Part shown: piece after piece, positions 45,001 to 48,000 of the stretch
Layout: each line of letters opens with the position of its first letter
Numbering within the stretch: position 1 is the stretch's first letter
IMG/VR virus record: IMGVR_UViG_2721755660_000001
Source: a virus
Taxonomy: Duplodnaviria > Heunggongvirae > Uroviricota > Caudoviricetes
Reading direction: 5' to 3' (one strand)
Length of the DNA: 64,000 bases
Position numbers: made by a program

Positions 45001-48000
45001 ATTATGATTACATAGAGCATGGTTTTGATTGCCAGGTAATCAACCACGGCAGGAATGCCAAGGTAGTAAGAAACCTTTTCTCGCACAGCGATGTGTATTA
45101 AGTAGACTCCGTATGTAAAAGGAGCAAGGAAAAGAATAATCTTCGAAGCAGGCTTGTCATTATCGAAATGAGTGCCGGTGACTATTAAAGTCAACATACT
45201 AGAGAAGAAGAACATGCTGACGCTAAAATCATAGGGCTTGGTATCAAACCCAAGGCTGTTGACGCTTAGCCATGTGAATGTGACTTGCATTGCAAGCGAG
45301 GCCGCAAACAACTTCCACGTGGTTGATCTCTTGATTTTAACGCGCTGAAGAAGCCCTCCCGCGATGAAGTAGCCTAGCCAAAGATAAATCTGAGGTATTG
45401 GGATAATGTTATGATACCCCGTTATTACTTTCCCCAGTTGATGCTCATACTGAGGCCAACAACAAATGACAGCTATAAATATTAAGCTATGGGCAGTTTT
45501 ATCCAATGGAATTGCATCAGTTATTACTTTAATGGCAGGGTAAACAATGTAAATGCCAAGCAGAGAATAAACAAACCATAAGTGAACAGATATGCCTGTT
45601 GGTGATTTGTATAGCAACTCGAAAAATCCACCTATTCCTTTATTGTAGAACGCATCATTATGCTGGAAATAATAGTTTATGAAAGCGTAAATGAAGAATG
45701 GAACAAGCAATGTTGCAAGTCTTTTTCTATAACCAGACCAAAGATTTTCCGTTTTACGGTTAAGCAGGAAATATCCGCTCATTATAAAGAATATAGGAAG
45801 TCCGGCTCTGACGATCGCTTGAGTAAACATCGATTGATAGACAATTAGATCAGACTGTCCGGTTTTAACCATCGTCGCATAGTCCGGGGTAACATGAATT
45901 GCTATCACTAACAGGCAGCAAATTATCCGTAAAAAATCTGCAGATACATTTCTCATGGGGATTCCATAAAATTTTTTCCTACATGATAGAGCAACCAACC
46001 CCGGTTGTGAATGGCATGAGAAATTCCATAAGCATCAGTCATAAGCATTGAGGCAGTGATCACTACTTGATCAGCAATGCCGCAATGAACTACTGTATGC
46101 ATATACAGTAATCACGGAGTGCATATCATGGGCTTTCCATCACCGGCGGCAGACTTCACAGAAAGGCGCATATCGCTCGATGCGATGCTCGTAAGCCATC
46201 CATCAGCTACGTACTACATGCGCGCAGCAGACACTCACTATCGCGCTGGTATCATGTCTGGTGCGCTTCTTCTCATCGACTCGGTATTGAAGCCATGCGA
46301 TGGTTCGCTTCTTGTTTGTGCTACTGAGGGGGAATTCAGGATAAAGCGGTACCGGACTCATCCGCGACCACACCTGGAGAATCTTGCTGATGGGAGATGG
46401 GAGGAGTTGCCGATAGACAGGGAGAACACGTCGGATGCGCTGGCGGTGTTTGGGGTGATCAAGTACATCATCAATGATGCGCGATCGGGGGAGTTTGACG
46501 ACTGCCCGGTGATGTAGCTGGAACTACTCCACCTTTTCATCAAGCCAGTCTGCCCACCACTGCATCATCTCACGACGGGTATCGAGATAGGCGGCATGGT
46601 TGTATACCGATCTGGTGCCGCCGCTAACGTGTGCCAGCTGCATTTCGATAGCATCACTGTTCCAGTGCTTCTCATTGAGCACGGTACTGAACTGATGTCG
46701 GAATCCGTGGCCGCTGGTCTGCCCTTCATAGCCAATGTTGCGGATCAGCCCAAGTACTGAGTTCTCGCTGATTGGCTTCTTTCTGTCATTTCGGCCGGGG
46801 AAACAAAGGTCGTACTGACCGGTGACATGCTTCAGAAACTTAAATAGCTCCTCAACCTGCCCGGACATCGGCACGACGTGCATCTTGCGGCCCTTCATCA
46901 CTGATGGATCAACGCTGATTAGCCTGTTTTCAAAGTCGATTCCTGACCATGCCAGCGAGCGGAGTTCGACTGTGCGCATGGCTGTATAGTGCAGCACCTG
47001 CGCCGCTATCTTAATAACAATCCAGCCGCCATAGGCATTCATTGCCCGCTGGAACTCGTGTATGCGGTGCAGGGGAAGGAAAGGGTAGTTCTCTTTCCGG
47101 TAGCCACGCATAGCGCCAGCAAGGTCTCTTGATGGGTTGTACTTAGCCCTGCCAGTTACGATCGCATAACTGAATACTTCACCACACCTACGCCTCGCCT
47201 TATCAGCGCGTTCCATTGCGCCCCTGTCTTCGAAAAGCCTGATCACCTTCAGCAGAACCATTGGTTCGACATCTTCCATCTTCAGGTGCCCAATAACTGG
47301 CAATATGTCATCCGTGAACATGCTCATCATCTCGTCAGCATATCCCTTAGACCACACCTTTGATTTGTGCGCATGCCATTCACGGAAGATATCCCCAAAA
47401 GAATCGGCGCTCTCTTCTTTCTCTTTCTTCTTTATTGCCTTCTTCTGTTCAGCCGGGTCAATGCCGGTCAGCAATTTCATCTTCGCTTCAGCCTGCCGGG
47501 CCCGGGCTTCGGTAAGAGAAATTTCAGGATAGGGTCCGATAACTAGAGTCTTTTCTTTTCTATCAAAACGGTAGCGCAGGCGCCATACCTTTTTACCCGA
47601 CGGAGGGACAAAGAGGAAAAGACCTCCAGCATTAGCCAGGCGATATGATTTTTCCGCAGGCTTGGCTGCGTCGATCTGCTTTACCGTAAGCATGTGGGCA
47701 TAAATCCATGGGTATTTTTTGATATGCCCGCAATATGCCCGCAAAAGTTTGGTGGAGTCAATACATGTCGGGTAACGTCAGGTAATTTGAAAATGGATGA
47801 TATTGTTGCTTTGATGGGGTTGTTGGTAACGTCAGGAAGTGTGAGGTAATGAGAATGTGGTGTCCCCTGCAGGAATCGAACCTGCAATTAGCCCTTAGGA
47901 GGGGCTCGTTATATCCATTTAACTAAGAGGACGTTGTTGCGTATTGATTTTGGTTGTTCACCATATGACTGATAATACCGTCTTTATGGTTTTAAAATCA

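What the first reader, a model, noticed from the sequence alone, without database searches (positions are those of the whole stretch)
46091..46517. SOS box in front of a stand-alone, pre-truncated UmuD'-like gene
A perfect LexA-box palindrome (TACTGTATGCATATACAGTA) precedes an ORF that aligns to UmuD starting exactly at the residues after the RecA-mediated cleavage site (GFPSPAADF...). The catalytic SGDSM Ser motif is replaced and no umuC partner is present in the window. This looks like an SOS-induced, constitutively active-form UmuD' mimic that could modulate host polymerase V or RecA during induction. It sits divergent from the AT3 operon and next to the integrase.
Basis: partly seen in the sequence, partly recalled or inferred. 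Interest (0 to 1): 0.55.

Follow-up and report, generated by a model that had tools for sequence, protein, structure and literature searches.

The report
LexA-controlled prophage HumD (UmuD'-like) gene
This is an ordinary copy of humD, a known phage gene for a ready-made "activated" form of the SOS mutagenesis protein UmuD, switched on by DNA damage through a LexA operator; it sits at the integrase end of an E. coli prophage and is already named as such in public annotation.

Summary
A strong LexA (SOS) box at 46091-46110 lies 17 nt upstream of a 129-aa ORF (46128-46517, +). After its initiator Met, the ORF aligns with E. coli UmuD from Gly25, the first residue of RecA-processed UmuD'. The window holds no umuC. 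The protein matches the curated NCBIfam equivalog "HumD family translesion DNA polymerase" over its full length (203.7 bits, cut-off 120). It is 67% identical to phage P1 HumD, and RefSeq already gives this exact protein that name. All 33 related loci examined carry a LexA box at the head of the humD transcription unit. The gene is under purifying selection, so it is not a umuDC remnant. The "replaced Ser motif" is a conservative Ser60-to-Thr change that is the majority state in the family; Lys97 is kept. The gene belongs to a ~46-kb lambdoid prophage at tRNA-Arg(CCU) (argW). Most likely mechanism, by homology: DNA damage removes LexA, and HumD dimers join host UmuC without the RecA-dependent cleavage step. 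Interest is low. The one possibly new detail is a nearly invariant HumD-specific C-terminal tail that resembles the SSB C-terminal tip.

The parts
46067..46072 (+). -35-like hexamer TTGATC of the inferred humD promoter
   Evidence: Conserved in 14 of 16 aligned upstream regions of HumD loci. The same hexamer sits 17 nt upstream of the SOS box of K-12 umuDC. Inferred; no transcript data.
46091..46110 (+). LexA (SOS) box TACTGTATGCATATACAGTA; its left half TACTGT (46091-46096) is the likely -10 element (18-nt spacer from TTGATC)
   Evidence: Unique in the window, with 18/20 matches to the consensus and 0 matches in shuffles. The identical 20-mer lies upstream of the humD unit in L020, L024 and L033. 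A LexA box heads the humD unit in all 33 related loci. P1 has an annotated LexA site 19 nt upstream of humD.
46116..46119 (+). Shine-Dalgarno GGAG, 8 nt before the ATG
   Evidence: Read from the sequence. GGAG/GAGG is conserved at the same place in relatives. The in-frame GTG at 46119 overlaps the SD and is out of frame in relatives, so ATG 46128 is the start, as PGAP calls it.
46128..46517 (+). humD-family gene, 129 aa, a pre-truncated UmuD'-like protein (identical to RefSeq WP_032141916.1)
   Evidence: NCBIfam NF051876 HumD equivalog 203.7 bits, positions 1-129 of 129. Pfam Peptidase_S24. phrog_811 UmuD-like. 67% identical to P1 HumD and 40% to UmuD. Best PDB sequence match is UmuD' 1umu. 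AF2 core best matches 1umu, 8gmt and 1ay9. pN 0.18-0.25 against pS 0.6-0.8 versus close relatives.
46488..46514 (+). HumD-specific C-terminal extension (about 10 aa, SGEFDDCPVM) beyond the end of UmuD
   Evidence: Absent from UmuD. E, F, D, D, P are nearly invariant in 120 cluster representatives. AF2 confidence is low here. Function unknown.
43002..45956 (-). Context: divergent three-gene operon (AT3 acyltransferase, HL_N-beta/Ig-like protein, AT3 acyltransferase), probably a surface-polysaccharide modification cargo
   Evidence: Pfam Acyl_transf_3 twice. PGAP coordinates. A separate promoter-like site at 46011-45983 lies about 80 bp from the LexA box.
46524..47693 (-). Context: prophage tyrosine integrase, convergent with humD (6 bp between the two stop codons)
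   Evidence: Pfam Arm-DNA-bind_3, Phage_int_M and Phage_integrase. PGAP coordinates.
47858..47932 (-). Context: tRNA-Arg(CCU) (argW), the prophage attachment site
   Evidence: ARAGORN. The 15-bp repeat TGGTGTCCCCTGCAG at 47858-47872 recurs at 1690-1704.
1690..1704 (.). Context: distal att repeat marking the other end of the ~46-kb prophage
   Evidence: Exact 15-bp direct repeat of the tRNA 3' end.
9938..10690 (-). Context: prophage CI-type repressor (HTH plus Peptidase_S24), suggesting the prophage itself is RecA/SOS inducible
   Evidence: Pfam HTH_3 and Peptidase_S24. PGAP names it an XRE family regulator.

Best explanation
The locus is a humD gene: a stand-alone, phage-borne homologue of UmuD' made without the 24-residue N-terminal arm, under direct LexA control. 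It is carried as cargo next to the integrase of a ~46-kb lambdoid prophage integrated at argW in E. coli. In the undamaged lysogen, LexA sits on the SOS box, which overlaps the likely -10 element (TACTGT) and the transcription start of a weak TTGATC-N18-TACTGT promoter built like that of umuDC. DNA damage activates RecA, LexA cleaves itself, and humD is transcribed together with the host umuDC operon. Because HumD starts at the equivalent of UmuD Gly25, it needs no RecA-mediated self-cleavage. It dimerises and pairs with host UmuC, and with RecA filaments, to give a pol V-like translesion activity earlier than host UmuD processing would allow. This would help replication of damaged host and prophage DNA, at the cost of mutagenesis. 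Shown here: the sequence anatomy, family membership, conserved operator, purifying selection, absence of umuC in the window, and near-universal presence of umuC in E. coli. Inferred: LexA binding, the promoter, and the biochemical activity, the last by homology to P1 HumD.
For: Family membership: NF051876 HumD equivalog 203.7 bits against a cut-off of 120, full length; 67% identity to P1 HumD; RefSeq names this exact protein HumD family. Pre-truncation: in the alignment of 122 family sequences (the window copy, P1 HumD and 120 cluster representatives), 121 have Met at the UmuD Cys24 column and 121 have Gly at the Gly25 column. Operator: 18/20 match to the consensus and unique in the window. 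A LexA box lies 15-45 nt from the ATG in 23 related loci and 255-285 nt upstream, ahead of a co-oriented small ORF, in the other 10. P1 has an annotated LexA site in the same position. Promoter hexamers are shared with umuDC. Fold: best PDB hits are UmuD' and UmuD. Selection: pN 0.18-0.25 with pS 0.6-0.8 against close relatives. The gene stays intact in copies where the neighbouring AT3 operon is disrupted by an IS or split (L054, L055). Partner: no umuC in the window, but umuC is in 5422 of 5426 complete E. coli genomes. Function of the prototype: PMC7092418, PMC9603915, the P1 record note 'functionally complements E. coli UmuD'', and the title of McLenigan et al. 1999 as cited.
Against: No experiment bears on this allele, which is only 67% identical to the tested P1 protein. 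The promoter is weak by consensus and the generic promoter scan did not find it. From my own recollection of McLenigan 1999 (paper not held), HumD complemented well only from a high-copy plasmid and is kept at low levels, so its natural role may not be bulk mutagenesis. The near-invariant Ser/Thr-Lys pair and the conserved C-terminal tail are not explained by a simple UmuD' substitute.
Confidence: 0.85

Rival explanations
1. HumD acts mainly as a modulator of RecA filaments or the SOS checkpoint rather than as a pol V subunit. For example, it could occupy the RecA* groove used by LexA, CI and UmuD, or sequester host UmuD in heterodimers, so tuning prophage induction, recombination or the timing of SOS.
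For: The fold is that of proteins that dock in the RecA filament groove; 8gmt (UmuD-RecA filament) is among the best structural matches. The gene is stand-alone with no polymerase partner in the element. The prophage repressor is itself an S24 autocleaving type, so RecA* occupancy would matter to the phage. The family-specific tail and the retained Ser/Thr-Lys pair hint at functions beyond UmuD'.
Against: The only functional descriptions of the prototype available here are UmuD' complementation and SOS mutagenesis. This reading is compatible with, not exclusive of, the pol V role.
Confidence: 0.1
2. It is a decaying 5'-truncated remnant of a umuDC operon (a pseudogene) that happens to retain its SOS box.
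For: The promoter hexamers and box resemble those of umuDC. umuC is absent. The nucleophile Ser is changed.
Against: The start falls exactly at Met-Gly25 in 121 of the 122 aligned family sequences, with a conserved SD. Purifying selection is strong. The protein matches a curated equivalog over its full length. The family has a conserved C-terminal extension of its own. The exact protein is indexed in 849 blocks of the assembly collection, and all 8 places shown have the same tail spike-AT3-humD-integrase context.
Confidence: 0.01
3. The LexA box controls a neighbour (the divergent AT3 operon or the integrase) and its position before the ORF is incidental.
For: In P1 the same site is annotated as serving both humD and the divergent lxr gene. 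The box lies in a 171-bp divergent intergenic region.
Against: The box keeps a fixed 15-20 nt distance to the humD ATG in loci whose upstream sequence is otherwise unrelated. The AT3 promoter-like site is about 80 bp away. The integrase is downstream and convergent.
Confidence: 0.04

Closest known systems
Bacteriophage P1 HumD (AAQ14181.1; NCBIfam NF051876 'HumD family translesion DNA polymerase')
   Same: Same length (129 aa) and 67% identity. Both start Met-GFPSPAAD and end with the GEFDDCPV[MI] tail. Both have a LexA box 17-19 nt upstream, lack an adjacent umuC, and are carried by a temperate phage.
   Different: The carrier here is an integrated lambdoid prophage at argW, next to int and an AT3 operon; in P1 it is a phage-plasmid with the lxr-humD-phd-doc arrangement. 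The residue at the Ser60 position is Thr here and Ser in P1. This allele is untested experimentally.
E. coli UmuD / UmuD' (pol V accessory subunit; PDB 1umu, 1ay9, 1i4v, 8gmt)
   Same: Same S24-like fold and 40% identity from Gly25 onward. Lys97 is conserved. Both are LexA-controlled through a promoter with the same hexamers.
   Different: No 24-residue arm and no Cys24-Gly25 cleavage site, so no RecA-dependent activation step. No umuC in the operon. Ser60 is Thr. There are 10 extra C-terminal residues. The score is below the UmuD subfamily cut-off (81.9 against 110).
UmuD-like proteins of other temperate phages (N15 gp26, HK639, BTP1, Enterobacter phage vB_Ecl_MII_003)
   Same: 59-68% identical full-length matches, also stand-alone genes in phage genomes.
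   Different: Different phage backbones and positions. None shares the exact AT3-humD-int arrangement seen here.
Plasmid and ICE UmuD homologues (MucA, RumA and others, annotated umuD on conjugative plasmids)
   Same: Mobile-element-borne S24 accessory subunits for SOS translesion synthesis, 35-42% identical.
   Different: From established knowledge of these operons, they are full-length, need cleavage, and are paired with their own UmuC-type polymerase gene.

Membership tests
HumD family (NCBIfam NF051876, equivalog) | Scores above the curated cut-off of the family HMM over the full length | tested here: met
   203.7 bits against a cut-off of 120; protein 1-129 matched to profile 1-129 of 129.
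HumD family | Protein begins at the equivalent of UmuD Gly25, with no N-terminal arm and no cleavage site | tested here: met
   Met1 then GFPSPAAD aligns to UmuD 25-32. The same holds in 121 of the 122 aligned family sequences.
HumD family | Stand-alone gene, not in an operon with a umuC-type polymerase | tested here: met
   No UmuC similarity in 64 kb (best E 1.6). The neighbours are an AT3 operon and int.
HumD family | LexA operator in front of the gene | tested here: met
   Box at 46091-46110, 17 nt from the ATG. Conserved in 33 of 33 related loci. Annotated in P1. Actual LexA binding was not tested.
HumD family | Carried by a temperate phage or prophage | tested here: met
   A ~46-kb prophage bounded by 15-bp att repeats at argW, with terminase, capsid, tail, lysis, Q and CI genes.
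HumD family | Substitutes for UmuD' in SOS mutagenesis; binds UmuC and RecA filaments | not testable with these tools
   Known only for P1 HumD (record note; PMC7092418).
UmuD proper (NCBIfam NF007621 / PRK10276, autoproteolytic pol V subunit) | Score above the subfamily cut-off | tested here: not met
   81.9 bits against a cut-off of 110.
UmuD proper | N-terminal arm with Cys24-Gly25 cleavage site and Ser60-Lys97 dyad for self-cleavage | tested here: not met
   The arm is absent. Ser60 is Thr36 and Lys97 is retained as Lys73.
LexA / CI-type repressor | N-terminal DNA-binding domain plus S24 domain; score above the LexA cut-off | tested here: not met
   No HTH domain found. TIGR00498 17.7 bits against a cut-off of 110.95. 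LexA and CI structures rank far below UmuD'.
Peptidase S24 fold (Pfam PF00717) | Domain match above the gathering score | tested here: met
   33.9 bits against 23.3, residues 1-77. Peptidase activity is not implied.

The most novel reading that the evidence does not exclude
HumD proteins are more than pre-cut UmuD'. They carry a family-specific, nearly invariant C-terminal peptide (R-x-G-E-F-D-D-C-P-V-M-COOH) that resembles the SSB C-terminal tip (D-F-D-D-D-I-P-F-COOH); one Franconibacter copy even ends in FDDTPF. This tail could dock HumD, or a HumD-UmuC complex, onto the pockets of SSB-partner proteins, or compete with SSB for them. That would give the phage protein a targeting or interference function that host UmuD' lacks. 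The retained Ser/Thr-Lys pair might likewise serve trans-cleavage of host UmuD.
Probability: 0.08. Interest if true: 0.55.

Novelty: already known. Interest (0 to 1): 0.15.

Why it matters
It matters little for discovery. The locus is a textbook-style example of a temperate phage carrying an SOS-regulated, pre-activated translesion-synthesis accessory factor, first described for P1 in 1999 and now covered by a curated NCBI family model. Its practical value is in annotation. Older RefSeq records label it only 'S24 family peptidase' or 'LexA family transcriptional regulator', which is misleading. It also shows that such prophage cargo could raise damage-induced mutagenesis in lysogens, including bovine and food E. 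coli isolates. The comparative result here (33 of 33 loci with a LexA box, umuDC-like promoter hexamers, Ser/Thr-Lys retention, a conserved tail) adds small detail to a known family.

Tried and rejected
- The generic sigma-70 scan found no acceptable promoter for humD. Its only + strand hit near the gene (TATACA-16-TATCAT, 46102-46129) would start transcription inside the ORF and was rejected. The promoter was instead inferred from conservation and from comparison with umuDC.
- AlphaFold2 with a 60-sequence alignment gave a moderate model (mean pLDDT 67.7). The core was usable, but the N-terminal arm and the C-terminal tail were below 50. Nothing can be said about where the tail packs.
- The primary papers (McLenigan 1999, PMC94175; Lobocka 2004, PMC523184) are not in the held library. 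Functional statements therefore rest on secondary citations and the P1 GenBank notes.
- A heterology index for the LexA box was not computed because I do not have the published matrix. Consensus matching and comparative conservation were used instead.
- Ten loci at first seemed to lack a LexA box. Widening the scan showed the box 255-285 nt upstream, ahead of a small co-transcribed ORF.
- The pseudogene reading was rejected.
- The repressor-fragment reading was rejected.

Full report
**Observation.** The sequence TACTGTATGCATATACAGTA is present once, at 46091-46110.
- It is the only place in the 64-kb window within 3 mismatches of the 20-nt LexA consensus TACTGTATATATATACAGTA. It has 2 mismatches, both in the central spacer, and there were no matches in 100 shuffles.
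- It is also the only CTGT-N8-ACAG in the window.
- The two 8-nt arms are perfectly complementary, but the central GCAT is not, so 'perfect palindrome' is slightly overstated.
- Seventeen nucleotides downstream, after a GGAG Shine-Dalgarno at 46116-46119, an ATG at 46128 opens a 129-codon ORF ending at 46517.
- The longer GTG start at 46119 overlaps the SD and is out of frame in relatives. PGAP also calls ATG 46128.

**What the ORF is.**
- After Met1 the protein reads GFPSPAADF... and aligns with E. coli UmuD from Gly25, the first residue of RecA-processed UmuD', through to the end of UmuD. tblastn matches UmuD 25-139 at E 2.7e-24.
- It matches Pfam Peptidase_S24 and PHROG 811 'UmuD-like'.
- Decisively, it matches the NCBIfam equivalog NF051876 'HumD family translesion DNA polymerase' over the whole length: 1-129 of 129, 203.7 bits against a curated cut-off of 120.
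- It falls below the cut-offs for UmuD proper (81.9 against 110) and LexA (17.7 against 110.95).
- It is 67% identical to phage P1 HumD and 59-68% identical to UmuD-like genes of N15, HK639, BTP1 and other temperate phages.
- An AlphaFold2 model has a core pLDDT of about 80. It is closest to UmuD'/UmuD structures (1umu, 8gmt, 1ay9, 1i4v), about three orders of magnitude in E-value ahead of LexA and lambda CI C-terminal domains.
- RefSeq already names this exact protein (WP_032141916.1) 'HumD family translesion DNA polymerase' in its newest annotation. Older records call it 'S24 family peptidase'.

**Catalytic residues.**
P1 HumD has Ser at this position, and Lys97 is retained as Lys73.
- I aligned 122 family sequences (the window copy, P1 HumD and 120 cluster representatives). 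The Ser60 column is Thr in 73, Ser in 47 and Ala in 2. The Lys97 column is Lys in 120.
- The UmuD Cys24 column is Met in 121 and the Gly25 column is Gly in 121.
- So pre-truncation is the defining, conserved state of the family, and Thr is its majority residue, not a peculiarity of this copy.
- My inference is that a hydroxyl-Lys pair is kept for structural reasons. A mostly-Thr nucleophile argues against conserved peptidase activity.

**Not a remnant.**
- Against close relatives, synonymous sites are near saturation (pS 0.6-0.8) while non-synonymous differences are 0.18-0.25. Where dN/dS can be computed it is 0.06-0.32.
- The identical protein is indexed in 849 blocks of the public assembly collection. 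The 8 places shown all have the order tail spike, AT3 operon, humD, integrase, yfdC, with tRNA-Arg between int and yfdC where RNA genes are annotated.
- It remains intact in copies where the AT3 operon is split or interrupted by an IS (L054, L055).

**Operator and promoter.**
- In 23 related loci from Citrobacter, Enterobacter, Kluyvera, Klebsiella, Scandinavium, Yokenella, Trabulsiella, Franconibacter, Erwinia and P1, a LexA box lies 15-45 nt from the humD ATG. Six of these have two tandem boxes.
- In the 10 loci that at first seemed to lack one, humD is the second gene after an ~80-aa ORF of unknown function (phrog_3893). The LexA box sits 255-285 nt upstream, at the head of that two-gene unit.
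- So 33 of 33 family loci with at least 44% identity have the operator. Three of them (L020, L024, L033) have exactly the window's 20-mer.
- The P1 GenBank record annotates a LexA binding site 19 nt upstream of humD.
- Upstream alignment shows a conserved TTGATC hexamer (46067-46072 in the window), 18 nt before the box's left half TACTGT.
- K-12 umuDC has TTGATC-N17-TACTGT with its own SOS box in the same register.
- I therefore infer a umuDC-type promoter whose -10 element and start site are covered by LexA. The generic promoter scan did not detect it, and this step is inference.

**Context.**
- The window is E. coli. Five of 5426 complete genomes carry the identical 801-bp segment.
- A 15-bp direct repeat, TGGTGTCCCCTGCAG, occurs at 1690-1704 and at 47858-47872. 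The second copy is the 3' end of tRNA-Arg(CCU) at 47858-47932.
- These repeats bound a ~46-kb lambdoid prophage. It has an HTH-plus-S24 CI-type repressor, replication genes, Q, lysis genes, terminase, a capsid and siphovirus-type tail, and a tail spike.
- A divergent three-gene acyltransferase (AT3) operon follows the tail spike, then humD, then a convergent integrase.
- The window has no UmuC homologue, but umuC is present in 5422 of 5426 complete E. coli genomes. A host partner is therefore essentially always available.

**Mechanism.**
- In the lysogen, LexA most likely represses humD.
- DNA damage leads to LexA self-cleavage and humD transcription alongside host umuDC.
- HumD lacks the N-terminal arm, so it needs no RecA-mediated processing. 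It can dimerise and join host UmuC and RecA filaments directly.
- This would provide translesion synthesis, and mutagenesis, without the delay that UmuD cleavage imposes.
- The biochemical part rests on the P1 prototype. [quoted passage not shown] The P1 record says 'functionally complements E. coli UmuD''. McLenigan et al. 1999 has a title that says the same (cited). That paper and the P1 genome paper could not be read here.
- A rival, not exclusive, reading is that the natural role is modulation of RecA filaments or the UmuD checkpoint.
- The pseudogene reading and the 'box serves a neighbour' reading are poorly supported.

**Comparison and novelty.**
- The locus meets every testable defining feature of the HumD family.
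- It fails those of UmuD proper (no arm or cleavage site, no umuC, below the cut-off) and of LexA/CI repressors (no DNA-binding domain).
- It works like UmuD' and is a member of the HumD family.
- It is already known: the family was described in 1999, has a curated equivalog model, and this protein is already so annotated.
- What differs from P1 is only the carrier (an integrated lambdoid prophage at argW, next to int and an AT3 operon) and the Ser-to-Thr change.

**One detail that may be new.**
- All HumD proteins extend about 10 residues beyond the end of UmuD, with a nearly invariant tail R-x-G-E-F-D-D-C-P-V-M.
- Its acidic-aromatic core and its proline followed by a hydrophobic C-terminus resemble the E. 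coli SSB tip ...MDFDDDIPF. A Franconibacter copy ends in ...EFDDTPF.
- AF2 gives no confident placement for the tail.
- This is a resemblance only. I could not test it, and I give it a low probability.

**Verdict.** Interest is 0.15.

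Noticed in passing
window 46488-46514 (last 9-10 codons of humD); also L031, L043-L045: The HumD family has a nearly invariant C-terminal tail, ...R-x-G-E-F-D-D-C-P-V-M, that UmuD lacks. It resembles the SSB C-terminal tip MDFDDDIPF, and the Franconibacter copy ends EFDDTPF. Three conserved cysteines (C57, C64, C126) are also family-specific. Function unknown.
   Followed up: partly
window 16139-16387 (+): The same prophage encodes a DNA polymerase III theta-subunit homologue (Pfam DNA_pol3_theta, 116.8 bits). P1 likewise carries hot (a theta homologue) about 750 bp from humD. 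Two unrelated phage backbones thus pair a theta mimic with a UmuD' mimic.
   Followed up: partly
window 48053-49297 (+) and onward: A second tyrosine integrase lies on the 5' side of tRNA-Arg and reads away from it. It opens another prophage 97-99% identical to prophages of EHEC strains (O111:H8, O121, O157:H7). The window therefore holds two different prophages flanking argW, whereas the genomes that share the humD prophage have yfdC here.
   Followed up: partly
window 46517-46524: humD and the integrase gene are convergent, with only 6 bp between their stop codons and no convincing terminator after humD; the only + strand terminator-like hit downstream is a weak 5-bp stem at 46655-46667. SOS-induced humD transcription would then read antisense into int. 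Whether this affects excision is unknown.
   Followed up: no
L005 5441-5680 (-) and 5759-5995 (+); likewise L007, L025-L029, L033, L034: In a subset of HumD loci, humD is the second gene behind an ~80-aa ORF of unknown function (phrog_3893, MPRR[SN]DIE...). A LexA box heads the pair. In L005 a DinI-family gene is divergent from it, making a small SOS-regulated cargo cluster in P2-like tail-fibre neighbourhoods.
   Followed up: partly
window 43002-45956 (-): A three-gene operon lies between the tail spike and humD: two AT3 acyltransferases flanking a secreted HL_N-beta/Ig-like protein. It looks like a lysogenic-conversion (surface polysaccharide acylation) module. It is interrupted by an IS in one strain (L055) and split in another (L054).
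   Followed up: no
L043, L044, L045 (Enterobacter, Dryocola, Pseudocitrobacter): More distant stand-alone proteins of 109-125 aa, 26-29% identical, also begin MGFPSPAADY and end in acidic-Pro-hydrophobic tails (DDDCPVM, DDGNPFI, QDDIPVM). Pre-truncated UmuD'-like proteins therefore extend beyond the curated HumD family.
   Followed up: no
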